From contig JBBTRK010000005.1 in NCBI GenBank assembly GCA_038065235.1, positions 22,389-86,388 of the forward strand: a stretch of DNA of 64,000 bases, in the 5' to 3' direction. Origin of the DNA: Patescibacteria group bacterium (GTDB taxonomy: Bacteria > Patescibacteriota > Patescibacteriia > PEXW01). This document shows, piece after piece, positions 46,706-57,123 of the stretch. The notes beneath the pieces are model-generated. The model saw nothing but the letters and a program-made list of their open reading frames with translations. It was not told the origin of the DNA and did not search any database. Position numbers and translations under genes: made by a program. Position 1 is the first letter of the stretch, and the number at the start of each line of letters is the position of its first letter.

Positions 46706-46784
46706 TCCCCCAACCCCCCCCCTATCGGCCGAAGTCCCGCGCATGCGGGACGAAGGCTGAAACCCCCCCCCGCCCCCGGGGTAG
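46706..46784. repeat. Family A-like GC palindrome with long C homopolymers and an inner tcccgcgcatgcggga palindrome.
   Basis: Seen directly in the sequence. Confidence 0.6.
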
Positions 46785-46861: not shown

Positions 46862-48016
46862 ATGAATCCTATTCGTCGGTTTGGCGCTTTACTAGCGATC
46901 GTGGCTGCAGTAGCAGTCATGCTTTTCCCTTTGGCTAGCGTTCGAGCGCAAGCCAACGAAGAGTCGTTCAAAGCGAAAGTGGTGGAAGTCCTTGAGAACA
47001 AAACCACTCCAGAAGAAGAAGGTGCGGCCCTACCCCAGCAGAAGTTGCAGCTGCAAGGCCTTTCTGGTACCTGGAAAGGGAAGAGCATCATCTTCGACGG
47101 TACGAAGTATGAGGTCATGTCGGCGAGTAGGTACGAAGTCGGTGATGTCGTCATGGTTAATGTATCTGCAGACGCAGATGGGAATAAAGAATTCTTCGTC
47201 GTCGACTACGTCCGGCAGAACTCGCTCTACTGGCTCGCAGCACTTTTCGCATTAGTGGTTGTCGTTGTGGGCAGGCTCAAAGGCCTGCGCGCACTTGCCG
47301 TGCTGCTGCTGACTTTCGTGGTCATCCAGAAGTTCATCGTGCCAAGAATCCTCGCCGGTGATAACCCGCTCGTCATTAGCATTCTTGGTGCGTTGGTTAT
47401 CCTCGGCATTGCAATCTACATTACGGAAGGCTTCAAGCGTTCCTCTACTATTGCCATTGGCTCGGTCCTGCTCTCGCTCATTATCACCGGCCTGCTGTCT
47501 ATTGCGTTTACCGCCGCAGCGAAGCTCACGGGATTTGCAAGTGAAGAAGCCATTTACCTCAAAGGGCTCTCTGGGGTGGACATTAACGTGCATGGCTTAC
47601 TACTCGCCGGCATCATCATCGGTACCCTGGGGGTTTTGGATGATGTCATTATTTCTCAAGTGATGGTGGTAGAAGAATTGAAGCACGCAAACCGTAGCCT
47701 GACGAATCGCACCGTCTTCGCAAAAGCAATGCGGGTGGGCATTGGGCACATGAGCGCCTTGGTGAACACGCTCTTCCTCGCCTACGCCGGGGCATCGCTG
47801 CCACTCCTCTTGCTCTTCAGTGTTCGCGAGGAGCCGTTCCTGACGTTTAATCAGGTCATCAACAACGACATGATCGCTACAGAAATTGTCCGTACGCTCA
47901 CGGGCAGCATTGGCATTGTCCTCGCCGTACCGATTGCCACAGCACTAGCAGTAAAATTTATAAAAGCAAGTAAAGGTGGGGATACCGAGGTTGCCGACAG
48001 CACCCACCGGCACTAA
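46862..48016 (+). CDS. YibE/F-family membrane protein.
   Basis: Signal/TM, an extracellular domain, then multiple TMs with a GVLDDVIIS motif. Confidence 0.5.
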   Translation: MNPIRRFGALLAIVAAVAVMLFPLASVRAQANEESFKAKVVEVLENKTTPEEEGAALPQQKLQLQGLSGTWKGKSIIFDGTKYEVMSASRYEVGDVVMVNVSADADGNKEFFVVDYVRQNSLYWLAALFALVVVVVGRLKGLRALAVLLLTFVVIQKFIVPRILAGDNPLVISILGALVILGIAIYITEGFKRSSTIAIGSVLLSLIITGLLSIAFTAAAKLTGFASEEAIYLKGLSGVDINVHGLLLAGIIIGTLGVLDDVIISQVMVVEELKHANRSLTNRTVFAKAMRVGIGHMSALVNTLFLAYAGASLPLLLLFSVREEPFLTFNQVINNDMIATEIVRTLTGSIGIVLAVPIATALAVKFIKASKGGDTEVADSTHRH

Positions 48017-48047
48017 CTGAAACCTTTTTGGTTCGGGTTCCCCCCAA

Positions 48048-48127
48048 CCCCCTTGCCGACCGTAGCTTACTTGCCGTCCGAAGCTTTAGCGTAGGAAGGG
48101 GCGCAGGCTGGGGGCAGAGGGGTGGGT
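48048..48127. repeat. Family A repeat, copy 3.
   Basis: ttccccccaacccccttgccgaccgtagctt...ggctgggggcagaggggtggg. Confidence 0.7.
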
Positions 48128-48164
48128 TTTGGCGTTCACTTCTTCAGCCTGGTAGACTAGGGGC

Positions 48165-48655
48165 ATGACCCTATTGCCCGCGGAGACGATTAGGGTCAGA
48201 ATGTTATTTTTTTGGGTTATGTAAAAACCGCTCGGGGATTGAGCGGTTTTGAGTAATACGGTATTTGGGTTACTTTCACATTAGCCGGCGAAAGCTTGGA
48301 TGGCCGCAGCGCAGGCTGCAATAATGAGCATAATGGTTACGGAAATTGCAGAGCAAACAAAAAGGATCAGGGTTACGTGCAAGAGTTTTGCCCGATAGTA
48401 CTTCCCAGCGCTTTCGGCAGTAAAAAGTAAGGCCCAGCTTATCACGACTCCAGCGCAGCTAATGGGGATTAAGAACAGCCACGCCCACCAATAAGCAGAT
48501 ATAAAATTTATCAATGTTGCCTCCGTTGGTTTTCTCAAACCTACACCCCCAGCTTGAGTAGTCAATAGCTTGCACGTACAATACAGGTATGAACCTCATG
48601 TCATCTTTGAATAGTGAACAAAAACAGGCGGTTACGCATGCGTCCGGCCCGCTGT
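48165..48655. repeat. Left copy of a 491-bp perfect direct repeat.
   Basis: Identical to 53606-54096 (atgaccctattgcccgcggagacg ... gcgtccggcccgct). Confidence 0.9.
48281..48514 (-). CDS. Small 2-TM membrane protein, left duplicate copy. Probable TTG start after GGAGG; the ORF track extends it to 48565.
   Basis: MINFISAYWWAWLFLIPIS... A highly hydrophobic ~77 aa. Confidence 0.5.
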   Translation of the reverse strand: MINFISAYWWAWLFLIPISCAGVVISWALLFTAESAGKYYRAKLLHVTLILFVCSAISVTIMLIIAACAAAIQAFAG

Positions 48656-48671
48656 TAATCGTTGCTGGTGG
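48589..48671 (+). pseudogene. Duplicated 5' fragment of the UvrD-like helicase gene.
   Basis: MNLMSSLNSEQKQAVTHASGPLLIVAG is identical to the start of the 54031 gene, then diverges before Walker A. Confidence 0.75.
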
Positions 48672-48755
48672 AGAGATATTGTTAGGTAGGCCACGAAAGT
48701 CGACACACGAAAGTCGGCACTTGATATTCTGTATTACTTTGGGTAGAGTATCTCT

Positions 48756-49031
48756 ATGCTCTTACACGTAAATGTACCCCTCTCCATTTTCCGCGAAGGT
48801 AAGCGTTTTGTGGCCTTTACCCCAGCACTCGACCTCTCTACCTCTGGCAAGTCCCTTGCCGAGGCAAAGTCTCGTTTTTCCGAAGCCGTCCAGCTCTTCT
48901 TTGAAGAGTTAGAACGGATGGGGACAGTGGACGAAACACTTTCCGATCTCGGCTGGCACAAAGCCGAGCGGAAGTGGCAAGCGCCCCAGCCAATTTTTCA
49001 AGATACACAGCGGGTGCAAGTCGCGGTGTAA
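48756..49031 (+). CDS. hicB: HicB-family antitoxin (UPF0150 fold).
   Basis: FVAFTPALDLSTSGKSLAEAKSRFSEAVQLFFEELE matches the HicB N-domain pattern. Adjacent to hicA. Confidence 0.65.
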   Translation: MLLHVNVPLSIFREGKRFVAFTPALDLSTSGKSLAEAKSRFSEAVQLFFEELERMGTVDETLSDLGWHKAERKWQAPQPIFQDTQRVQVAV

Positions 49032-49035
49032 TTTT

Positions 49036-49266
49036 ATGCCGCGCGTCACGCCGGTACACTGGAAGCGCTTTGAGAAGTTTCTCCTCTACGTTGGTTGCAC
49101 GTTCGTTCGAGAGAAAGGTGACCACCGCATCTACACGCGGGATGGTTTATCGCGCCCGGTTGTTGTCCCCCGCGACACGCAGCTGCCGATATTCATTATA
49201 CGGAATAACTTACGCGTCCTTGGTATTTCGACGGACGACTACTTGCAAATTTTAGACCGCGTGTAG
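49036..49266 (+). CDS. hicA: HicA-family mRNA interferase toxin.
   Basis: WKRFEKFLLYVGCTFVREKGDHRIYTRDG...VVVP fits the K..L...GW...R.KGSH..F HicA pattern. Confidence 0.7.
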   Translation: MPRVTPVHWKRFEKFLLYVGCTFVREKGDHRIYTRDGLSRPVVVPRDTQLPIFIIRNNLRVLGISTDDYLQILDRV

Positions 49267-49352
49267 CAGGTTCCTCGTATGGCCCTATTGCCCATGCGCT
49301 AGGGGATTTGTTTATGCTTCCGAGCGCAGCATCTCCAAGCTGCGCTCTCTCC

Positions 49353-49392
49353 ATTCCCCCAACCCCCGCCCGCCCCAGGGGGCAGAGGGATT
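49353..49392. repeat. Family A repeat, short copy.
   Basis: cccccaacccccgcccgccccagggggcagaggg. Confidence 0.6.
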
Positions 49393-49481
49393 GACAAAGC
49401 GTAGTATTTCTAGTACATTGTATTGTTCCTAGAAAAAGTACAAAGTACCCTGACAATATTCACACAGAAAGGTGGAATTTC

Positions 49482-50468
49482 GTGCAAAAAGACCCAGTTG
49501 TTTACTTGGGCGAGGCATGGCGTGATGCACATGCCGTCGCGGTTCTGGATCATCAACGAGTCGTTGCAGAAAAGCAACTGGCTCGTACGCTCGTCCAAGA
49601 CGAAGATGTCATGGGCGAACGAGTTCTTTACGGTTGCACAGTGCAAGTGCCAGTTGGCATCGCACATGCAGATCGTGCTGTAGAATCTGCTTCTACCGAG
49701 TTTGAGCTTGTTCAAGCAGAGGCAGAACAGGCAAAAGCATTCGAATGCGAATGTCTGACGGAGACCGGTATAGCCCCGCTAGCAGTTGTACCGACGAATA
49801 TATGGGAACAGGTGACCAAGGCCTGGGGGTTGGTGAGGTTCGAATACCTGGAGCACTCCCGCGCCTACGCGCGTACTGTCAGCGAGCCGCCAATGCCTTC
49901 GGAGACTCGTAGAGCTGCGTGGATGTACTCCATTTCTGCTTGCATTGCACTGTGCATGGTCGCCATTCTGGCGATCGTTGCATCGGTATACTGGTGGGGT
50001 GCCGCATTCGTTGCTGTGTTTCTTTCCTGGTGTGCCTATGTTCTGGTTCGCGAGTACCGCACAAAGTCAAAAGCGCGTAGTGCATACGAGCAGCGTAAAC
50101 AGACACCGGGAGGGTTCGTTTCCGAGCTCTGGCCAGATGGGCATGACTATTACGAGTACCTCGTTCGAATGTCTGATTTCGGTGAGTTCTGCCAGCTTCC
50201 CGTAGCGTTTCCAAACGCACCCAAGAGCTTTGTTGAGAAGTTGCTTCGGTTAGAATCCAAGAGGGTACATTGCTGCATTGCCGCCGCCCCCGAAGCAATT
50301 CACGTCAAGCTTAGCGAAGCAAGACCGGCACCGAATGCCGATCCCATACTGTATATCAAGTCTCCATGCGGAGGCTTCGTAGCAGTCCTCGACCGCTTCG
50401 GTAACTTCGAAAATGAAGCGCGTGCCGTCCAGCAAGCGCAAGACATCACGGCACAGTACTACGCCTAA
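49482..50468 (+). CDS. Hypothetical protein with two central TM helices.
   Basis: GTG start after AAAGGTGG. Confidence 0.45.
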   Translation: MQKDPVVYLGEAWRDAHAVAVLDHQRVVAEKQLARTLVQDEDVMGERVLYGCTVQVPVGIAHADRAVESASTEFELVQAEAEQAKAFECECLTETGIAPLAVVPTNIWEQVTKAWGLVRFEYLEHSRAYARTVSEPPMPSETRRAAWMYSISACIALCMVAILAIVASVYWWGAAFVAVFLSWCAYVLVREYRTKSKARSAYEQRKQTPGGFVSELWPDGHDYYEYLVRMSDFGEFCQLPVAFPNAPKSFVEKLLRLESKRVHCCIAAAPEAIHVKLSEARPAPNADPILYIKSPCGGFVAVLDRFGNFENEARAVQQAQDITAQYYA

Positions 50469-50522
50469 CACCAACATTCGTTGTTTGATGACCAGCACCC
50501 TAAAAAGTGCTGGTTTTCTTTT

Positions 50523-50633
50523 TCCCCCAACCCCCTTGCCGTCCGTAGCTTTCTTGCCGACCGAAGCCTTGGCGAAGGTCGGAGCGTAGGACGGTGGCGT
50601 AGGTCGGTGCGCCCCGAGGGAGGGGGCAGCGGC
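50523..50633. repeat. Family A repeat, expanded copy with internal cgtaggWcgg sub-repeats.
   Basis: tttcccccaacccccttgccgtccgtagctttcttgccgaccgaagc...gagggagggggcagcggccc. Confidence 0.7.
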
Positions 50634-50678
50634 CCAGGTTGACGCCCACTTTCGGCTGGCGTACACTAGTTTTTACTT

Positions 50679-50951
50679 ATGTCTGCCCCAACTACTGAAT
50701 ACCTAGACCAGCGTTTTGAGCGCCTGGAATTAGCTACGCAATCTATTCTGACCGAAATGCGTCAGCGGTTTGCTGACCATGACGCCCGTTTCCAGCGTAT
50801 TGAAGCAACCTTAGCAACCCTTGTAGAATCCGTTGATCGTTTTGCAAAAATTTACACCGATCTAAACCAGGAAGTCGTGGTTATGCGGCAACAGCTTCGC
50901 GACGTGGAATCGCGTGTGGGGAAACTGGAGCTCAAGTTGAAGACAGCGTAA
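50679..50951 (+). CDS. Small coiled-coil hypothetical protein.
   Basis: ORF followed by a terminator hairpin. Confidence 0.45.
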   Translation: MSAPTTEYLDQRFERLELATQSILTEMRQRFADHDARFQRIEATLATLVESVDRFAKIYTDLNQEVVVMRQQLRDVESRVGKLELKLKTA

Positions 50952-51085
50952 TTATTCATTTTCTGGCAAACCCCGAGCATCCGCCCGGGGTTTTCTTTTT
51001 GCCGAATTTTCCCCCACCCCCAACCCCCGCGCCCCGGAACGTAAAACAAAAAGCCCAACTCTCGTGAGTTGGGCCAAAAGTAATT

Positions 51086-51313
51086 TTACTTTTTCGTATC
51101 GCCCTTCTTCGTGCATTCGACGCTAACCTTCAGCCGCCACTGTGCACCGCAGCGCGTGCAGGTAAAAGTCTTTTTGCCATCGACGAATACGACTGGCTTG
51201 CCACAGTGGCATGCCTGGGAGGGGATAGGCGTGAAGAGATGACCTATTTCCAGAATCAACCTCTCGCCGGCAGTTTGAATCACTTTTCTTAAAGAGCTAG
51301 TTTCGCTTGCCAT
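51086..51313 (-). CDS. Small zinc-ribbon protein.
   Basis: CHCG...CTRCG. Confidence 0.45.
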   Translation of the reverse strand: MASETSSLRKVIQTAGERLILEIGHLFTPIPSQACHCGKPVVFVDGKKTFTCTRCGAQWRLKVSVECTKKGDTKK

Positions 51314-51384
51314 GTAAATACCTCACTTTGTATGTGACTTTGTTTAACGGCTTACTGTAGCTAGGTAAGCTGCCTTTGTCAACC

Positions 51385-51466
51385 AAACCCCGCGCCCCCG
51401 CCCCAGGGGAGGGCAGAGGTCCGCCCGGCACGCCTACGGCGCAGCCGTGGCGGACGGGGGTGGGGG
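51385..51466. repeat. Family A repeat copy. A partial copy also lies at 51009-51037.
   Basis: caaaccccgcgcccccgccccaggggagggcagagg...gggggtgggggat. Confidence 0.65.
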
Positions 51467-51540
51467 ATAACCTGTTCACAAGCTAGCCCTTGCCGTTTGC
51501 TGTGGGAAAGCTAAAATAGTACTTATTTTAAAGTTATTGT

Positions 51541-52335
51541 ATGACTTCTGATAAAGAGTTTAATAAGGCAGCGCTGACAGCCGTAATATGCGCATTCATA
51601 ATCATGACATTTGTATTATTGTGGCGTTCTGGGGTGGATATAAGGTGGGCTGATGTACTAATTAATTTGTGTATAGCGTTACTTACAGCAATAATTTCAA
51701 TATTCGCCGCATTTGCTTTGTATAAGAGAGGGAAGAAAGCTGAGCAAAAAAGAGTGTTCGCAAACTTTAAACTGCTGTTTGCCGCATTTGTTTCAGAGAC
51801 TAATGACAATTTAGGTATACTAGTGTCATATCAAAAATCTGTAACGACAGATTCAATTTCGCATTTTAAAATGCTAACTGAAGTAATATCTAAAATAGTT
51901 ACTAACCATTTAATCTATAAACATTTAAGTGAGGAGCATGTAGTAGCAATTCGTTACGCACTTCATAAATACTTAGAGCTAAATAGCTATCTTGAAATTT
52001 TGATGCCGATTTTTTATGAGGGGAAAATTACTGAGCATTTAGTAAAACAGTTGCAGTTAGATGCAAAGAAAGTCAGGTATTATGCACTCGTTTTGCAGAA
52101 TTTAAACCAGGTTGCATTAAATGTGCTTGACGTTAGGTGGGTACCAAGTACAGATACTAAGTTGTTATATATGGATTTGTTGAAAAATGAGCCTAAGGAA
52201 GACGATCTTGAAAAATTTATTGATAAGTTGAAAAGCCATATAGAAATTGAGAAAAATATTAGCGCTCAACAAAAAGCGATTTCTAAAAAGAACTATTTAG
52301 CCGCAATGGAGAGGTACGAGAAAAAGTTAGAGTGA
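51541..52335 (+). CDS. AT-rich hypothetical protein with an N-terminal 2-TM anchor.
   Basis: Strongly AT-rich relative to the flanks. Confidence 0.55.
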   Translation: MTSDKEFNKAALTAVICAFIIMTFVLLWRSGVDIRWADVLINLCIALLTAIISIFAAFALYKRGKKAEQKRVFANFKLLFAAFVSETNDNLGILVSYQKSVTTDSISHFKMLTEVISKIVTNHLIYKHLSEEHVVAIRYALHKYLELNSYLEILMPIFYEGKITEHLVKQLQLDAKKVRYYALVLQNLNQVALNVLDVRWVPSTDTKLLYMDLLKNEPKEDDLEKFIDKLKSHIEIEKNISAQQKAISKKNYLAAMERYEKKLE

Positions 52336-52433
52336 ATCACGATACCTCACCTCAAGGGGCACATCAGTTACACCCGGCCATATGGTTTATTGTAAAGAGC
52401 TTAGAATATGAGCTCACATAACGCATAGATATT

Positions 52434-53180
52434 ATGAAGAAAGGGACAAAAATTTCGATACGTCTCAACCCCTACGTTTTTTTATATTCTGAAGCAAAGT
52501 TCTTTTTAGAGCACAGCAGTGTTAGTAGAGACTCTAAAAATGTGACCGATCTTATTAAGCGTTCAAAATTTGCAAGAACGAGCATAATTCTGTTCCAAGC
52601 TACGGTGGAATCAATACTTCGGTGGCTTCTTTTTAATGGCGCAATAAAAGGTATTTCAATGAGTTTAAAGAAAAAAATCGACCGAATGGATTTCAAGACC
52701 CGATTGGTTGAAATCACGAACGCTAATTGTAAAAAAATAAAGGTGTCTAATTTTCAGAAATACAATCACTTACTAGAAATGGCTGACCTAAGAAACAGCA
52801 TAATTCATCAAGAACATCTTCAAATGCAAGGCACCGTGGAAACTTTCGATAAAGTAAACAATAAAATAAAGATCCACCTAATTTCACGGAGTGAATTTTA
52901 TACTCATTCAAAACTCCAGAAGAATGTCAGACTCGTTGACTATTTTGATGCAATAAAAAGTAACGAAATTGTAGACGAGTTTGTTGATTGGTTGAAAATC
53001 AATCTTAAACGCCCAGAAGACTTTATCAACACGTTTAGCATTGTTGCCCATAATATAAAATCTAGAAGCCGGAAATTAAAAATCGGTTCAAGTTTACAGA
53101 TTGAAATTAAAGGTAGAGGAGAAGATCTCATCGATATGGCTAGCTATTGGCCAAATACAAAAATGACTTTTAGATTGTAA
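52434..53180 (+). CDS. AT-rich hypothetical protein with an RNxxxH (HEPN-like) motif.
   Basis: EMADLRNSIIHQEH. AT-rich. Confidence 0.55.
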   Translation: MKKGTKISIRLNPYVFLYSEAKFFLEHSSVSRDSKNVTDLIKRSKFARTSIILFQATVESILRWLLFNGAIKGISMSLKKKIDRMDFKTRLVEITNANCKKIKVSNFQKYNHLLEMADLRNSIIHQEHLQMQGTVETFDKVNNKIKIHLISRSEFYTHSKLQKNVRLVDYFDAIKSNEIVDEFVDWLKINLKRPEDFINTFSIVAHNIKSRSRKLKIGSSLQIEIKGRGEDLIDMASYWPNTKMTFRL

Positions 53181-53319
53181 TCTCACACCCTATTTTTTGG
53201 CATCTCCTATCCTGCCTGGTAGACTAGGTACATGACCCTATTGCCCCAAGAAAAATAGTTTTTGTTTGAAAAAAAGCCACCCGTAGAGAGTGGCTTGCAT
53301 TTTGCAACGATGTTTTTGC

Positions 53320-53532
53320 TCATGTCGCCGTGAGGGCGTGTACTCCTGCAATTATCAGTAGTACTACTGAGCTTGCACCGACCAGAAAGAACATAGAAAA
53401 AAGAAAACCCAGGAATCTTTGGTATTTTATACTCATCAGCGAGATGACGCTGAAGTACATTCCCAGTACGCCCAGTAACCCAATGATTCCCGTGAGAATC
53501 CAGACCCACCAAAGCGCTGTTATTAAATCCAC
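53320..53532 (-). CDS. Small 2-TM membrane protein, paralogous to the 48281/53723 genes.
   Basis: MDLITALWWVWILTG... AGGAGG RBS. The upstream region is similar to the paralog's upstream region. Confidence 0.55.
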   Translation of the reverse strand: MDLITALWWVWILTGIIGLLGVLGMYFSVISLMSIKYQRFLGFLFSMFFLVGASSVVLLIIAGVHALTAT

Positions 53533-53605
53533 ATTTTCCTCCTTGTGTTTTCTTCAACCTACACCAGCCGCTTGAGTAGTCAATGGCTAGCACCTGCAAT
53601 GAGGC

Positions 53606-54096
53606 TATGACCCTATTGCCCGCGGAGACGATTAGGGTCAGAATGTTATTTTTTTGGGTTATGTAAAAACCGCTCGGGGATTGAGCGGTTTTGAGTAATA
53701 CGGTATTTGGGTTACTTTCACATTAGCCGGCGAAAGCTTGGATGGCCGCAGCGCAGGCTGCAATAATGAGCATAATGGTTACGGAAATTGCAGAGCAAAC
53801 AAAAAGGATCAGGGTTACGTGCAAGAGTTTTGCCCGATAGTACTTCCCAGCGCTTTCGGCAGTAAAAAGTAAGGCCCAGCTTATCACGACTCCAGCGCAG
53901 CTAATGGGGATTAAGAACAGCCACGCCCACCAATAAGCAGATATAAAATTTATCAATGTTGCCTCCGTTGGTTTTCTCAAACCTACACCCCCAGCTTGAG
54001 TAGTCAATAGCTTGCACGTACAATACAGGTATGAACCTCATGTCATCTTTGAATAGTGAACAAAAACAGGCGGTTACGCATGCGTCCGGCCCGCTC
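53606..54096. repeat. Right copy of the 491-bp direct repeat. It carries the genuine 5' end of the helicase gene.
   Basis: See the left copy. Confidence 0.9.
53723..53956 (-). CDS. Small 2-TM membrane protein, right duplicate copy.
   Basis: Identical to the 48281..48514 copy. Confidence 0.5.
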   Translation of the reverse strand: MINFISAYWWAWLFLIPISCAGVVISWALLFTAESAGKYYRAKLLHVTLILFVCSAISVTIMLIIAACAAAIQAFAG

Positions 54097-57000
54097 CTTA
54101 TCGTTGCCGGCGCGGGGACGGGCAAGACCACCGTCGTCACCCAGCGCATTGCCTGGCTCATTGCCGAAAAGAAGATTAAGCCTGACCACATCCTCGGGTT
54201 AACGTTCACGGACAAAGCCGCCGGGGAACTGGAAGAGCGCGTGGACAAGCTGCTGCCCATGGGCTACGTGGATTTGTGGGTGAGCACGTTCCACAGCTTC
54301 TGCGAGCGCATCCTGCGGGATCACGCCCTGGACATTGGCCTTAGCCCCGACTTCACCTTGCTGGATGAGACGGACCAGGCCATTCTGATGCGCGAGCACC
54401 TGGAGCAATTCGACTTGAGCTACTACCGGCCGTTGGGCAACCCGACGAAGTTCGTGTCCAGCCTCATCAAGCACTTCAGCCGGTGCAAGGATGAAGCAAT
54501 TCGGCCAGAGGAATATCTGAAATACGCAGAAAAGTTACGGCTGGATTTGGATCAGGTGCATGGGCGCAAAAAGCATTCGCAGGATGAAGACAAGGATGAA
54601 ATCGTTGAAGTAGACAGGATAAACGAAATTGCGAACGCGTACCACACCTACCAGCAGCTCCTGTTCCAGAAGGGGAGCCTGGACTTCGGCGACCTCATCA
54701 CGCAGACGCTCTATCTCTTCCAGCAGCGGCCCAAGATTCTGGAGCGCTACCGCAAGCAGTTCGAGTACATCCTGGTGGACGAATTCCAGGACACGAACTG
54801 GGCGCAGTACGAGCTGGTGAAGTTGCTCGCTGCCCCGCAGAACAACCTGACCGTGGTGGGGGATGATGACCAGAGTATCTACAAGTTCCGCGGCGCCAGC
54901 GTGGCCAACATTCTGGCGTTCAAGACGGACTTCCCCAAAGCCAAAGAAGTGGTGCTCACCCAGAACTACCGCAGCACGCAAAACATTCTGGACTTGGCCT
55001 ACGACTTCATCCAGGCGAACAACCCGAATAGGTTAGAGGTGCAGCTTGGTAATACACCCCCCCTTACCCCCCCTTCGAAAGGGGGGGAGGGTGAGGGAGC
55101 CAAGAAGCGTGGGCGACGGAAAAATTCCGCACCCCAATTATCTCCCTCTTCACAAGGGGGAGAGGGAGGGGGTCGAGACAAGGCCTTTGCGATTAGCAAA
55201 AAGCTTTTTGCTCAAGAGCAAGGCACCGGTACAATAGAGTATTCCATTGCACCGATTCTGGAGCAGGAAGCCACTGGCGCAGTGGAGAAAATCCTGGAGC
55301 TCAAGAAGAAGAAAGGCACCAGCTACAACGATTTTGCCATTCTGGTGCGCGCCAATGATTCGGCGCAGCCCTTCATCCAGCGCCTGAAAGCCGCGGACGT
55401 GCCGTTCCAGTTCGTGGCCACGGCCGGGCTGTACCGCCAACCCATTGTGCTGGACATCCTCAACTACCTCAAGCTGCTAGATAACTTCCACGAGAGCGCC
55501 AGCTTGTACCGCATGCTCACCCTCCCATCCCTGTGCATTCCCTTGCAGGATGTGATGAGCATGATGGCTACAGCGCGGCGGGAGACCAAGTCGCTGTACG
55601 AAGTGTCCAAGAACGTCCGTGCGCTCACCGGGATGCAACCCGAGACAATCGCGGCTGTGGAAAAACTTCATGGGTGGCTCGAAGCGCACGGCCAACTGGC
55701 GCGCACGCAGCCCGTGGGTGAAGTGGCCTTGAAGTTCTTGGAAGACTCGGGTTTGATGAAAGACCTCACCAGCTCCACAGACGCTGACCACTTGGAAGTG
55801 GTGAACTACATGAACCAGCTGTTCCAAGTGTTCCAGAGCTTCCAGATGCGGCACGAAGAACCGACGGTGAAGAATTTTTTGCACGAATTAGCTTTCGCCC
55901 AAGACGCGGGCGATTCTGGAAGTCTGCGGCCGCCCGAATGGGAGCAAGGCCCAGAGGCTGTGAAGCTCATGACCATTCACAGCGCCAAAGGCTTGGAATT
56001 CCCGTACGTGTTCATTGCGAACTTGGTTGATAAGAGATTCCCCACAATCGAGCGCCGCGACGCCATTGAACTACCCGATGATCTCGTCAGAGAGAAACTT
56101 CCCGAAGGGGACTGGCACTTGCAAGAAGAGCGACGCCTCATGTATGTGGCCATCACCCGCGCCAAGCAAGGCGTGTTCTTCACGGCCGCGGAAGACTACG
56201 GCGGCACGCGCAAGAAAAAGCCCTCGCGCTTCATTGAAGAGCTTGGCCTCAAAGCCAAACCGTTCAAATTAAAGGGTGGATTGTTGGATAAGCAAAAGGC
56301 GCCTGCACGTCAAGAAAATGACGCCGAATTACTGCGTAAAGCACTGCCCCCGTACTTCAGCTTCACGCAGTTGAAGGCGTTTGAGAAATGCCCTAAGCAG
56401 TACAAGTACGCCCACTTGCTGAAGATCCCGGTGCCAGGGCATGCCACGTTGAGCTTTGGCCAAACCATTCATAACACCTTGCTCAACTTCTTCAAGCTGG
56501 CACGCGAGCGCGGCATGGCCGGTCAGGCTGATTTGTTCGGCAAGAAAGACCAGGCCACCAGCGGCCCGCCTGTTACCTGGGCCGAGCTGCAGCAAATTTA
56601 CCAAGCCAACTGGCAAGACATGTGGTACAGCAGCATGGCGCAGAAGACGGAGTACAAGCACCGCGGCGTAAAGTTCCTCAAAAACTTCTACGATTCTCTC
56701 CCAACACCGTGGCCACAACCAACCGAGCTGGAAAAAGGTTTTACCATTGTCATCAACGGCCATAAAGTAAAAGGCAAGATTGACCGCATTGACCCCAGCA
56801 CTGGCGGCATAGAAATTATTGACTACAAGACCAGCGAGAAACCGCCAGCAGAAAACAAAGCCGATTTGGAACAGCTGCACATTTACGCTATGGCCGCGCG
56901 CGAAGCGCTTGGACTCAATCCGGTGAAGCTCACCTTCATTTACCTGGCCGCCGAAAAACCCTTTAGCTACCCAATTGACGAAAAGGCCATTGAGAAAACC

Positions 57001-57123
57001 CGCGCCGAGATAGGGGAGACCATTGAGGCAATTTTGAAAAGTGACTTTGTTGCCACGCCGAGCAAGTTCACCTGCGTATCCTGCGATTTTCGAAATATCT
57101 GCGAGGATAGGTATAGAGGGTAA
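54031..57123 (+). CDS. UvrD/PcrA-like superfamily-1 helicase fused to a C-terminal RecB-family (PD-(D/E)xK, Cys-cluster) nuclease domain.
   Basis: Walker A AGAGTGKT, DEFQDTN, and the helicase motifs. C-terminal IIDYKTS and CVSCDFRNICEDR. Confidence 0.9.
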   Translation: MNLMSSLNSEQKQAVTHASGPLLIVAGAGTGKTTVVTQRIAWLIAEKKIKPDHILGLTFTDKAAGELEERVDKLLPMGYVDLWVSTFHSFCERILRDHALDIGLSPDFTLLDETDQAILMREHLEQFDLSYYRPLGNPTKFVSSLIKHFSRCKDEAIRPEEYLKYAEKLRLDLDQVHGRKKHSQDEDKDEIVEVDRINEIANAYHTYQQLLFQKGSLDFGDLITQTLYLFQQRPKILERYRKQFEYILVDEFQDTNWAQYELVKLLAAPQNNLTVVGDDDQSIYKFRGASVANILAFKTDFPKAKEVVLTQNYRSTQNILDLAYDFIQANNPNRLEVQLGNTPPLTPPSKGGEGEGAKKRGRRKNSAPQLSPSSQGGEGGGRDKAFAISKKLFAQEQGTGTIEYSIAPILEQEATGAVEKILELKKKKGTSYNDFAILVRANDSAQPFIQRLKAADVPFQFVATAGLYRQPIVLDILNYLKLLDNFHESASLYRMLTLPSLCIPLQDVMSMMATARRETKSLYEVSKNVRALTGMQPETIAAVEKLHGWLEAHGQLARTQPVGEVALKFLEDSGLMKDLTSSTDADHLEVVNYMNQLFQVFQSFQMRHEEPTVKNFLHELAFAQDAGDSGSLRPPEWEQGPEAVKLMTIHSAKGLEFPYVFIANLVDKRFPTIERRDAIELPDDLVREKLPEGDWHLQEERRLMYVAITRAKQGVFFTAAEDYGGTRKKKPSRFIEELGLKAKPFKLKGGLLDKQKAPARQENDAELLRKALPPYFSFTQLKAFEKCPKQYKYAHLLKIPVPGHATLSFGQTIHNTLLNFFKLARERGMAGQADLFGKKDQATSGPPVTWAELQQIYQANWQDMWYSSMAQKTEYKHRGVKFLKNFYDSLPTPWPQPTELEKGFTIVINGHKVKGKIDRIDPSTGGIEIIDYKTSEKPPAENKADLEQLHIYAMAAREALGLNPVKLTFIYLAAEKPFSYPIDEKAIEKTRAEIGETIEAILKSDFVATPSKFTCVSCDFRNICEDRYRG
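55055..55172 (+). repeat. In-frame GC-rich palindromic insertion within the helicase ORF.
   Basis: CCCCCCC-TTCGAAA-GGGGGGG and tccctct...agaggga hairpins. Encodes the low-complexity stretch NTPPLTPPSKGGEGEGAKKRGRRKNSAPQLSPSSQGGEGGG. Confidence 0.6.

What the first reader, a model, noticed from the sequence alone, without database searches (positions are those of the whole stretch)
51541..53180. AT-rich two-gene cassette (2-TM protein + RNxxxH/HEPN-like protein) inside the duplicated-junction insertion: a candidate uncharacterised defence/abortive-infection module
These two co-directional genes are AT-rich by eye. The rest of the window is GC-rich, which makes recent horizontal acquisition likely. 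They sit in a segment bracketed by a perfect 491-bp direct repeat and share that segment with a HicB/HicA toxin-antitoxin pair. The second protein has an LRNSIIHQ (R-N-x3-H) motif, the canonical HEPN RNase signature. The first protein has an N-terminal 2-TM anchor and a helical cytoplasmic domain with no motif I recognise. A membrane-sensor protein paired with a HEPN effector is a common logic for abortive-infection systems, but this particular pair does not match any family I can name.
Basis: partly seen in the sequence, partly recalled or inferred. Interest (0 to 1): 0.8.

Follow-up and report, generated by a model that had tools for sequence, protein, structure and literature searches.

The report
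Acquired HEPN nuclease gene with membrane partner
A foreign, AT-rich two-gene insert in a groundwater Patescibacteria genome encodes a new small family of HEPN-type (RNA-cutting) toxin protein next to an orphan membrane protein, and it sits in a genomic slot that holds known anti-phage systems in related bacteria; it is a plausible but fairly ordinary kind of defence or toxin module.

Summary
Two co-directional ORFs (51541-52335, 264 aa; 52434-53180, 248 aa) have 34% GC against 54.6% elsewhere (-7.3 SD), with sharp edges. They lie between exact 489-bp direct repeats, downstream of hicBA. Independent Illumina contigs from several samples of one aquifer well confirm both junctions.

ORF2 is a HEPN-domain protein. 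Only 8 distant homologues exist among 1.84 billion representatives, and all keep E..RNSxxH. [quoted passage not shown] No Pfam, NCBIfam, PADLOC or PHROG model reaches threshold, so it is an unannotated HEPN family.

ORF1 is a real orphan with two N-terminal TM helices. I found no homologue outside this population, and no ORF2 homologue has an ORF1-like neighbour. The "membrane sensor + HEPN effector" pairing is therefore inferred only from co-acquisition and apparent co-transcription.

A defence role has contextual support. One homologue sits in a dense defence island. In relatives, the same slot, bounded by a conserved motif, carries a type I CBASS or another RNxxxH protein.

Verdict: a new member of a known kind, of moderate interest.

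The parts
51375..51480 (.). GC-rich (71%) palindromic REP-like element; left edge of the AT-rich cargo
   Evidence: GC steps from 0.71 (51400-51499) to 0.35 (51500-51599). RNAfold gives a strong hairpin (-72 kcal/mol for 51370-51545). It is related to the CCCCAACCCC elements at 46708, 48042, 49357, 50525 and 51018.
51490..51517 (+). Promoter-like site TTGCCG-16-TAAAAT, 24 nt upstream of the ORF1 ATG (candidate only)
   Evidence: Consensus scan, 9/12 matches. Not evidence of function.
51541..52335 (+). ORF1: 264-aa orphan protein with two N-terminal TM helices (about 7-34 and 34-63) and a ~200-aa predicted cytoplasmic domain. GC 0.340.
   Evidence: No family hit. No homologue outside the same population. 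NCBI MEK7639691.1, hypothetical protein.
52248..52252 (+). Poly-A tract whose length differs between assemblies (A5 vs A4), switching the ORF1 C-terminus between 264 and 252 aa
52336..52433 (+). 98-nt spacer between ORF1 and ORF2. No terminator-like site, no repeats, no Rfam match.
52434..53180 (+). ORF2: 248-aa HEPN-domain protein, founding member of a tiny unannotated family. GC 0.340.
52791..52808 (+). Codons for R120-N-S-I-I-H125, the Rx4H catalytic-type HEPN motif
   Evidence: Sequence read directly; invariant in alignment A1. In the model it lies at the end of helix 110-124 and the start of the following loop, as described for HEPN helix 3 (PMC3710099).
53194..53246 (+). Conserved ~50-nt motif (TTGGCA-17-TAGACT promoter-like, then CATGACCCTATTGCCC); right edge of the AT-rich cargo
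   Evidence: 79% identical to 48127-48179. Core found 4 times against 0.37 expected. Promoter-like. Same motif at the right edge of different AT-rich cargo in relatives L020, L021 and L022.
53274..53296 (.). Hairpin flanked by an A-run and a T-run: probable bidirectional terminator closing ORF1-ORF2 and the convergent 70-aa gene
   Evidence: sequence.
53320..53532 (-). 70-aa small membrane protein, a diverged paralogue of the 94-aa gene in the repeat; part of a 78%-identical third copy (53194-53614) of the region upstream of the helicase
48165..48653 (.). Left copy of the exact 489-bp direct repeat (94-aa membrane protein gene on the - strand, helicase promoter region, first 65 nt of the helicase gene)
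   Evidence: Junction confirmed by independent contigs.
53607..54095 (.). Right copy of the 489-bp repeat, continuing into the intact UvrD/PD-(D/E)XK helicase-nuclease gene (54031-57123)
48756..49266 (+). hicB-like (48756-49031) and hicA (49036-49266) toxin-antitoxin pair in the same inserted segment, at host-like GC
   Evidence: HicA PF07927 E 1.6e-9. 96-99% identical proteins at the equivalent place in relative L021.
49482..51313 (.). Three further unannotated genes of the inserted segment: 328-aa protein with central TM helices (49482-50468, +), 90-aa coiled-coil protein (50679-50951, +), 75-aa zinc-ribbon protein (51086-51313, -)
   Evidence: no family above threshold.

Best explanation
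The 1.7-kb AT-rich segment (about 51500-53200) is horizontally acquired cargo. It occupies a variable slot just upstream of a UvrD/PD-(D/E)XK helicase-nuclease gene in a ~1.09-Mb groundwater Patescibacteria genome.

ORF2 is a member of a very small, previously unannotated family of ~250-aa HEPN-domain proteins. It has the catalytic-type signature: an acidic residue in helix 2 (E59, Ex3R) and an invariant R120-N-S-x-x-H125 at the end of helix 3. It most likely acts as a metal-independent endoribonuclease, dimerising so that two Rx4H motifs form the active cleft. Its likely role is a growth-arresting effector of an abortive-infection or toxin-type module.

ORF1 is a co-acquired and probably co-transcribed orphan 2-TM protein with a cytoplasmic helical domain. 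It is most likely ORF2's locus-specific partner, either holding the RNase inactive at the membrane or relaying an envelope signal. It is not a conserved component of the ORF2 family.

Shown: composition, gene reality, HEPN fold and motif, rarity of the family, defence-type neighbourhoods, and a hotspot with exchangeable cargo.
Inferred: RNase activity, toxicity, dimerisation, co-transcription, any ORF1-ORF2 interaction, and the anti-phage role.
For: Composition and boundaries.

HEPN assignment:
- Alignment A1 has invariant E115, R120, N121, S122, H125 and D172, plus a conserved E/D at position 59.
- AF2 model with pLDDT 82.9 and pTM 0.79. Helix 110-124 ends in the motif, followed by a beta-hairpin and helix 170-190.
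- The motif position, the polar residue after R and the helix-2 acidic residue match the published definition (PMC3710099).
- Three family members give weak hits to PF18735 RiboL-PSP-HEPN over the motif region.

Conflict context:
- P0004 lies directly after a CBASS cyclase (PADLOC 4.5e-117) and a 2TM effector (2.9e-21), within a dense defence island.
- P0008 lies next to a Panacea-domain TA pair.
- Family genes are AT-richer than their flanks in 6 of 8 loci.

Hotspot:
- The motif GGTAGACTAGGnnCATGACCCTATTGCCC marks the right edge of different AT-rich cargo in relatives.
- That cargo is a type I CBASS in L022 (cyclase 1.8e-95, 2TM effector 8.7e-58) and an RNLIVH protein plus two unknowns in L020.
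- In L021 it is membrane proteins, downstream of 96-99% identical HicBA.

Pairing: both genes have GC 0.340, sit in one cargo segment between the same two boundary elements, and have no terminator-like site between them.
Against: - No ORF2 homologue has an ORF1-like neighbour. P0003 is monocistronic, so the family can evidently work without ORF1.
- ORF1 has no detectable homologues or domains, and its structure was not predicted.
- The model was built from only 9 sequences.
- No PADLOC model matches, so there is no link to any experimentally validated system.
- L021's cargo in the same slot is not recognisably defensive, so slot occupancy alone does not prove defence.
- No experiment of any kind.
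Confidence: 0.5

Rival explanations
1. ORF2 is a self-contained single-gene HEPN abortive-infection protein or toxin, like AbiD/F, ApeA, HepS or mycobacteriophage gp57r. It would be auto-inhibited until triggered. ORF1 would be an unrelated membrane protein that arrived on the same piece of DNA, for example a surface or exclusion function of the donor element.
For: - Family members occur with entirely different neighbours. P0003 stands alone between divergent and convergent genes.
- ORF1 is absent from all family loci.
- The 98-nt spacer shows no translational coupling.
Against: - Both genes have identical, extreme composition (GC 0.340 each) and sit within one sharply bounded cargo unit.
- No terminator-like site lies between them.
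- In one relative the same slot holds a complete multi-gene system (CBASS in L022), which suggests that cargo can arrive as a functional unit.
Confidence: 0.33
2. ORF1-ORF2 is primarily an addiction-type toxin-antitoxin pair that stabilises the inserted segment, alongside hicBA. The upstream membrane protein would neutralise the HEPN toxin, with no dedicated anti-phage role.
For: - Gene order (putative antitoxin first), two-gene size, and a neighbouring HicBA.
- The closest structural matches are HepT toxins of MNT-HEPN TA systems.
- Homologue P0008 sits next to a Panacea TA pair.
Against: - ORF1 has no nucleotidyltransferase or DNA-binding domain and is a 264-aa membrane protein, which is atypical for antitoxins.
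- The partner is not conserved in the family.
- The hotspot and defence-island context fit defence at least as well.
Confidence: 0.12
3. ORF2's HEPN domain is non-catalytic, acting as a ligand- or RNA-binding or regulatory module as in sacsin or NTase-fused HEPNs. On this view the segment is neutral foreign cargo with no toxin or defence function.
For: - Non-catalytic HEPN domains exist (PMC3710099).
- No biochemical data are available.
- Foldseek was not significant.
Against: - Per PMC3710099, non-catalytic HEPNs typically lose the Rx4-6H motif.
- Here R, the following N, H and the upstream acidic residues are invariant across homologues of 24-38% identity.
Confidence: 0.04
4. The cassette, or the duplication around it, is an assembly chimera or contamination from an AT-rich organism.
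For: - The composition is extremely discordant.
- The raw long-read contig L002 carries homopolymer errors.
- Short-read contigs break at the repeat edges.
Against: - Seven independent contigs from several samples and assemblers are 100% identical over the cassette and its GC-rich flanks.
- They cross both junctions, and one is a 90-kb scaffold.
Confidence: 0.01

Closest known systems
HEPN superfamily, standalone Abi-type members (AbiD/F, AbiU2, AbiV, ApeA, HepS, mycobacteriophage Butters gp57r)
   Same: Single HEPN domain with a conserved Rx4H motif; ~200-300 aa; AT-rich, mobile, associated with defence islands; family members often lack a conserved partner.
   Different: No sequence-level match to any of their Pfam or PADLOC models. 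Own conserved signature ELxELRNSFxHP, a beta-hairpin after the motif, and a C-terminal GxGE segment. No phenotype known.
HepT/MntA (HEPN-MNT) type II/VII toxin-antitoxin systems (e.g. SO_3166/SO_3165, PDB 5yep)
   Different: No MNT nucleotidyltransferase partner. The motif is RNSIIHQE, not Rx4HxY. ORF2 is twice the size of HepT and has inserts.
Pfam PF18735 RiboL-PSP-HEPN and PF22095 BT_3535-like
   Same: The only Pfam models giving any signal over the motif region (E 0.02-0.05 for three homologues; E 0.002 for ORF2).
   Different: All scores (14-18.5 bits) are well below the gathering cut-offs (28.4 and 27 bits), so ORF2 is not a member by Pfam's criterion.
Membrane-associated HEPN proteins (TM-HEPN fusions of Anantharaman et al. 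2013) and Cas13b-Csx28
   Different: Here TM and HEPN are on separate polypeptides and the association is not conserved. There is no CRISPR array or Cas13. ORF1 shows no HEPN signal.
SLATT / CBASS / Pycsar 2TM effectors
   Same: ORF1 has two TM helices plus helical regions. A SLATT_4 2TM effector lies immediately upstream of ORF2 homologue P0004, and a SLATT effector occupies the same slot in relative L022.
   Different: ORF1 gives no SLATT hit, only a weak PycTM hit (E 0.0023) over the TM region. BLASTP against the L006 SLATT finds nothing. The TM helices are at the extreme N-terminus and there is no cyclase nearby.
Defence hotspots / variable slots at conserved chromosomal positions
   Same: A fixed flanking landmark (conserved motif upstream of the helicase gene) with exchangeable, compositionally foreign cargo that includes known defence systems in relatives.
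   Different: Seen here in only four loci of one Patescibacteria lineage. There is no integrase or phage/satellite backbone. Boundaries are a short promoter-like motif and GC-rich REP-like elements.

Membership tests
HEPN superfamily (ORF2) | Four-helix up-down core fold | tested here: met
HEPN superfamily (ORF2) | [quoted passage not shown] | tested here: met
   R120-x4-H125 is invariant in all 9 sequences. The model helix 110-124 ends in the motif. Definition from PMC3710099.
HEPN superfamily (ORF2) | Polar residue (N/D/H) immediately after the conserved R | tested here: met
   N121 is invariant.
HEPN superfamily (ORF2) | Second conserved acidic residue in helix 2, typically Ex3[KR] | tested here: met
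   E59-S-I-L-R63 in ORF2; E (D in P0004) in all 8 sequences that cover the column, within model helix 37-68.
HEPN superfamily (ORF2) | Metal-independent endoribonuclease activity; dimer with composite active site | not testable with these tools
   Needs biochemistry or a multimer model; structure-prediction cap reached.
Pfam PF18735 RiboL-PSP-HEPN / PF22095 BT_3535-like (ORF2) | Score at or above the curated gathering threshold | tested here: not met
   14-15 bits against 28.4 (three homologues), and 18.5 bits against 27 (ORF2).
HepT-MntA (HEPN-MNT) toxin-antitoxin | Adjacent minimal nucleotidyltransferase antitoxin | tested here: not met
   ORF1 and all other neighbours lack any NTase hit.
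HepT-MntA (HEPN-MNT) toxin-antitoxin | Rx4HxY motif (the tyrosine that is AMPylated) | tested here: not met
   ORF2 reads RNSIIHQE; the family consensus is RNSFxHP[KQ]. The Rx4HxY definition is from my own knowledge of the HepT literature.
SLATT / CBASS-type 2TM effector (ORF1) | Match to SLATT or 2TM-effector profiles | tested here: not met
   No Pfam SLATT hit. The only PADLOC hit is PycTM at E 0.0023 over the TM helices. By contrast, the true effectors in L006 and L022 score 2.9e-21 and 8.7e-58.
SLATT / CBASS-type 2TM effector (ORF1) | Adjacent nucleotide cyclase (SMODS/CD-NTase) | tested here: not met
   None in 48000-57000.
Cas13b-Csx28-type HEPN plus membrane pore | CRISPR array and a two-HEPN Cas13 effector | tested here: not met
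   No repeat array. ORF2 is a 248-aa single-HEPN protein.
HicAB toxin-antitoxin (neighbouring genes 48756-49266) | HicA toxin domain with an upstream or adjacent HicB antitoxin | tested here: inconclusive
   HicA meets the Pfam threshold (38.2 bits against 27). The partner ORF has no Pfam hit at E<=1, but it overlaps in operon fashion and is conserved with HicA in relative L021.
Integron-type cassette array (for the slot) | Integron integrase and attC sites (RYYYAAC ... GTTRRRY) | tested here: not met
   No integrase or recombinase in +/-10 kb. The REP-like elements carry CCCCAAC but no matching GTTRRRY end on inspection of alignment A4. No attC covariance model was run.

The most novel reading that the evidence does not exclude
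ORF1 and ORF2 are a genuinely new two-component abortive-infection system of candidate-phyla-radiation bacteria. An orphan membrane-anchored protein would gate a new-family HEPN RNase. The system would be delivered into a recombinase-free cassette slot whose conserved ~50-nt motif and flanking REP-like elements act as exchange sites for defence cargo among Patescibacteria.
Probability: 0.15. Interest if true: 0.65.

Novelty: new member of a known kind. Interest (0 to 1): 0.4.

Why it matters
Patescibacteria (CPR) have tiny genomes, and little is known of how they resist phages.

- This locus adds an unannotated HEPN family, with 9 clusters among 1.84 billion representative proteins.
- It also shows that a fixed position upstream of a helicase-nuclease gene behaves as an exchangeable slot. 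In close relatives the slot carries a complete CBASS or other cargo.
- If ORF2 is an active RNase, it is a compact new toxin or effector scaffold.
- If ORF1 really controls it, that would be an example of a membrane-linked trigger for a HEPN effector on separate polypeptides.

Neither point overturns current understanding, because HEPN effectors in mobile defence cargo are a familiar theme.

Tried and rejected
- Profile searches of both proteins against Pfam, NCBIfam, PADLOC and PHROGs found nothing above threshold.
- phmmer and profile searches against PDB sequences found nothing.
- A single-sequence AF2 model of ORF2 was useless (pLDDT 31.6) and cost one of the two structure jobs. ORF1 therefore could not be modelled.
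- Foldseek against PDB and BFVD gave no significant hits. afdb50 was not available.
- Homologue searches for ORF1 found only the same population. These covered the word-indexed 5.8-billion-cluster database, phage and plasmid tblastn, IMG/VR, and GTDB representatives.
- ORF2-family pattern scans of GTDB representatives and IMG/VR found nothing. ORF2 tblastn against phages and plasmids found nothing.
- I tested whether ORF1 is a diverged SLATT or a second HEPN. BLASTP against the L006 SLATT found nothing, and hhalign against the ORF2 family profile gave probability 0.2%. Its AIRYALHKY stretch has Rx3H spacing, one residue short of Rx4-6H. I do not count it as HEPN.
- I tested whether any neighbour of ORF2 homologues resembles ORF1 or the other island genes. 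None does. Five of seven informative loci do have an upstream co-directional protein with N-terminal TM helices, but these are mutually unrelated. One is clearly the CBASS effector, so I treat the pattern as suggestive at most.
- I looked for antitoxin RNA repeats, CRISPR arrays and known ncRNAs in 48000-54200 and found none.
- hhalign of the L020 RNLIVH protein against the ORF2 family showed no relationship.
- The integron hypothesis for the REP-like elements was rejected for lack of an integrase and attC-type ends.
- The assembly-artefact hypothesis was rejected.
Full report
**1. Observation**

- The segment has 34.5% GC, against 54.6 +/- 2.8% for equal-sized windows elsewhere in the 64 kb. 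That is -7.3 SD, and the lowest other window is 47.6%.
- The composition steps sharply at about 51500 and about 53200.
- Third-position GC is 0.34/0.35, against 0.54-0.72 for neighbouring genes.
- With about 7% stop codons expected at this composition, open frames of ~250 codons do not arise by chance (my arithmetic, p about 1e-9).

The flanking direct repeat is exact but 489 bp, not 491: 48165-48653 = 53607-54095. It contains a 94-aa membrane-protein gene on the minus strand. It also contains the region upstream of a UvrD/PD-(D/E)XK helicase-nuclease gene and that gene's first 65 nt. The intact helicase gene is 54031-57123.

HicA is confirmed (PF07927, E 1.6e-9). The ORF in front of it is HicB-like only by position, with no Pfam hit.

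**2. Is it real DNA, and whose?**

Exact-sequence look-ups show the two proteins are deposited as hypothetical proteins MEK7639691.1 and MEK7639692.1 of a "Patescibacteria group bacterium" MAG.
- They occur on 15 contigs. Contig names (Hain_H52...) point to well H52 of the Hainich groundwater observatory.
- A raw long-read contig of 1.09 Mb (L002) is the same genome with homopolymer errors.
- Independent Illumina contigs are 100% identical to the window. L014 runs from the end of the left repeat through the whole insert, the right repeat and 8 kb beyond. L013 is a 90-kb scaffold that crosses the left repeat and junction and resumes after a gap inside the right repeat.

The cassette and the duplicated structure are therefore not assembly artefacts.

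The only variation is the length of a poly-A tract at 52248-52252 (A5 or A4). It changes the last ~26 residues of ORF1.

**3. ORF2 is a HEPN-domain protein of a very small, unannotated family**

No curated library recognises it. Pfam's best hit is PF22095 at 18.5 bits against a 27-bit cut-off. PADLOC and NCBIfam return nothing, and PHROGs only chance-level hits (E about 0.4-0.5).

The word-indexed search of 5.8 billion clusters found only the protein itself. An exhaustive phmmer scan of 1.84 billion representatives found eight distant homologues of 24-38% identity.

In their alignment the invariant positions are E115, R120, N121, S122, H125 and D172, within a consensus ELxELRNSFxHP. An acidic residue at position 59 (E; D in one sequence) is conserved in all sequences that cover it.

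An AlphaFold2 model built on this 9-sequence alignment has mean pLDDT 82.9 and pTM 0.79. Its elements are:
- helices at 14-28 and 37-68;
- a short helical insert;
- helix 110-124, ending in the RNS residues, with H125 opening the following loop;
- a beta-hairpin (132-150);
- helix 170-190.

- These are HepT toxins 5yep_B, 7ae2 and 8xdj, plus AF0298, TT1696, TTHA0636, HI0074, ST0689, sacsin and 4nqf. They align over nearly the whole target length.
- AbiA, HepS, LsoA and Csm6 follow further down the list.

The published definition of the superfamily (PMC3710099) is met on every point I could test:
- a polar residue, mostly N, after the R;
- a second acidic residue in helix 2, typically Ex3[KR].

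ORF2 even reads E59-S-I-L-R63.

Weak hits of three homologues to PF18735 (RiboL-PSP-HEPN, E 0.02-0.05) fall on the motif region. They are far below threshold.

Caveats:
- Foldseek against PDB and BFVD gave nothing significant, although HEPN entries are among the weak hits.
- The alignment is shallow.
- I could not inspect coordinates to measure R/H geometry or model a dimer.

**4. ORF1 is a real but orphan membrane protein**

Hydropathy gives two TM helices at the extreme N-terminus (about 7-34 and 34-63). The strongly basic stretch after TM2 places the ~200-residue C-terminal domain in the cytoplasm (inference from the positive-inside rule).

Nothing was found in Pfam, NCBIfam, PADLOC, PHROGs or PDB sequences. 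The only signal is a weak PycTM hit over the TM helices.

No homologue turned up in the 5.8-billion-cluster search, phage or plasmid records, IMG/VR or GTDB representatives. All cluster members are identical apart from the poly-A frameshifts.
- It is not similar to the SLATT effector of L006 or to the ORF2 family profile.
- Its AIRYALHKY stretch has Rx3H spacing, one residue short of the HEPN rule. I do not count it.

**5. Are the two genes a system?**

For:
- They have the same extreme composition (0.340 each).
- They lie in one cargo segment between the same boundary elements.
- They have a promoter-like site 24 nt before ORF1, no terminator-like site in the 98-nt spacer, and a bidirectional hairpin terminator after ORF2.

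Against:
- None of the eight homologue loci encodes anything like ORF1.
- The neighbours differ each time:

| Homologue (locus) | Context |
|---|---|
| P0004 (L006/L007) | CBASS cyclase plus 2TM SLATT effector directly upstream |
| P0008 (L004) | Panacea-domain pair downstream |
| P0005 (L008) | 134-aa single-TM protein upstream; diversity-generating retroelement nearby |
| P0007 (L010) | 392-aa coiled-coil protein upstream |
| P0010 (L003) | 104-aa protein upstream; 558-aa protein ending in LRKIDAH downstream |
| P0003 (L005) | No co-directional neighbour |

Five of seven informative loci have an upstream co-directional protein with N-terminal TM helices. These proteins are mutually unrelated, and one is clearly the CBASS effector, so this is a hint and not evidence.

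The ORF2 family evidently does not need ORF1. If ORF1 is a partner, it is a locus-specific one.

**6. Context supports a conflict or defence role**

P0004 lies in a dense defence island. The island holds:
- two Bil-like ubiquitin-type systems and BubE genes;
- a CBASS type I system;
- a Ppl-like ABC ATPase and a PD-Lambda-3-like protein;
- NYN, a serine recombinase, and XamI/Eco57I restriction-modification genes.

Family genes are AT-richer than their flanks in 6 of 8 loci.

A ~50-nt motif immediately after ORF2 (53194-53246) gave a further test.
- It is a promoter-like TTGGCA-17-TAGACT followed by CATGACCCTATTGCCC.
- It is 79% identical to the sequence after the YibE_F gene at 48127-48179.
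- Its 15-nt core occurs four times, only in this region.

An exact scan of JGI metagenome contigs with this motif found three related loci. In each, the motif is the right-hand edge of compositionally foreign cargo:

| Locus | Cargo to the left of the motif |
|---|---|
| L022 | Complete type I CBASS (cyclase, PADLOC E 1.8e-95; 2TM SLATT effector, 8.7e-58) |
| L020 | 216-aa protein with an RNLIVH motif (weak RTasHEPN hit) plus two unknown genes; followed, as in the window, by the small membrane gene and the helicase start |
| L021 | 165-aa protein, AT-rich multi-TM protein and a TSP3-repeat protein, downstream of HicB/HicA 99%/96% identical to the window's. From a neighbouring well; helicase 89% identical. 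The motif lies ~60 nt before the helicase start. |

The left edges are GC-rich elements containing TTTTCCCCCAACCCCC. In the window these occur five times, only between 46.7 and 51.0 kb, and they separate every gene module.

The position upstream of the helicase gene is therefore a variable slot with exchangeable cargo in this lineage. Known defence systems are among that cargo. There is no integrase, transposase or phage gene within 10 kb. The motif and the family are also absent from IMG/VR.

**7. How the locus was built**

This part is only partly resolved. The window reads as three pieces:
- a recipient-type unit (YibE_F, REP, motif A, small TM gene, helicase nt 1-65);
- a donor-type unit (hicBA, three unknown genes, ORF1-ORF2, motif B, a 78%-diverged small TM gene, and a diverged helicase promoter up to its ATG);
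- the recipient-type unit again, from the core motif onward.

The joints are at 48653/48654 and inside ATGACCCT at 53600-53607. A Campbell-type integration of a 5442-bp circle and an unequal exchange between divergent versions of the locus both fit. I could not decide between them.

**8. Mechanism I commit to**

ORF2 is a HEPN endoribonuclease-type effector. It would arrest growth when active, as an abortive-infection or toxin function. It was acquired together with ORF1 as one AT-rich cargo unit in a defence-type slot.

My estimates:

| Claim | Probability |
|---|---|
| ORF2 is a HEPN-fold protein with a catalytic-type site | about 0.85 |
| It serves a conflict function (defence, toxin or addiction) | about 0.65 |
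| ORF1 is its functional partner | about 0.45 |
| ORF2 acts alone and ORF1 is unrelated co-transferred cargo | about 0.35 |

RNase activity, toxicity, dimerisation, co-transcription and the ORF1-ORF2 interaction are all inferred. None is shown.

**9. Comparison and novelty**

It works like standalone HEPN Abi proteins or HepT-type toxins, and by fold and motif it belongs to the HEPN superfamily.

It is not a member of any defined HEPN family or system that I could test:
- Pfam thresholds are not met.
- There is no MNT partner and no Rx4HxY motif.
- There is no cyclase, CRISPR array or TM fusion.

It is therefore a new member (family) of a known kind. The pairing with an orphan membrane protein and the recombinase-free cargo slot in Patescibacteria add moderate interest. 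I score interest 0.4.

The most novel reading not excluded is a new membrane-gated HEPN system delivered into a motif-defined cassette slot. I give it a probability of about 0.15.

Noticed in passing
window 48127-48179, 49278-49293, 53194-53246, 53606-53621; L020, L021, L022: A 15-nt core ATGRCCCTATTGCCC occurs four times, only in this region (0.37 expected). With a promoter-like TTGGCx-17-TAGACT in front, it forms a ~50-nt motif conserved in related Patescibacteria. There it always marks the right edge of AT-rich cargo. In L021 it lies ~60 nt upstream of the helicase start, so it may be the ancestral helicase promoter or a recombination landmark.
   Followed up: partly
window 46708, 48042, 49357, 50525, 51018 (and a variant at 51375-51480): GC-rich REP-like elements sharing TTTTCCCCCAACCCCC occur only between 46.7 and 51.5 kb of the 64-kb window. 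They separate every gene module of the variable region. They have no integrase and no attC-type ends.
   Followed up: partly
window 53194-53614: A third, 78%-diverged copy of the region upstream of the helicase, including a 70-aa paralogue (53320-53532, -) of the 94-aa membrane protein. It shows the insert came from a divergent version of the same locus. The right joint falls inside ATGACCCT (53600-53607).
   Followed up: partly
window 52248-52252: The poly-A tract length differs between assemblies of the same population (A5 vs A4, and a further variant in P0016), giving ORF1 C-termini of 264, 252 or other lengths. This is either sequencing error or slipped-strand variation.
   Followed up: partly
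window 49482-51313: Three unannotated genes share the inserted segment at host-like GC: a 328-aa protein with central TM helices, a 90-aa coiled-coil protein, and a 75-aa zinc-ribbon protein on the opposite strand with weak hits to the Cas12f/TnpB zinc-finger region (E about 0.006-0.02).
   Followed up: no
L006/L007 1-20750: A dense defence island around ORF2 homologue P0004. It holds two ubiquitin-like (Multi_ubiq/E2/ThiF) systems, BubE genes, a type I CBASS, a Ppl-like ABC ATPase, and a PD-Lambda-3-like protein. It also holds NYN, a serine recombinase, and XamI/Eco57I restriction-modification genes.
   Followed up: partly
L003 10726-12402: The 558-aa gene directly downstream of ORF2 homologue P0010 ends with LRKIDAH (Rx4H), possibly a second HEPN domain. 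It has no family hit.
   Followed up: no
L012 4399-5137: ORF2 homologue P0009 is split by a frameshift into 72-aa and 179-aa ORFs. This is either a pseudogene or a sequencing error.
   Followed up: no
L020 (reverse strand) 592-2354: In a relative, the slot holds a 216-aa AT-rich protein with ALAVRNLIVH (weak PADLOC RTasHEPN hit, E 0.016) plus overlapping 139- and 140-aa genes of unknown function. This is another candidate HEPN module, unrelated in sequence to ORF2.
   Followed up: partly
window 48756-49031: The ORF preceding hicA has a HicB-like N-terminal pattern but no Pfam hit at E<=1. It is 98.9% identical in relative L021, whose helicase DNA is only ~89% identical.
   Followed up: no
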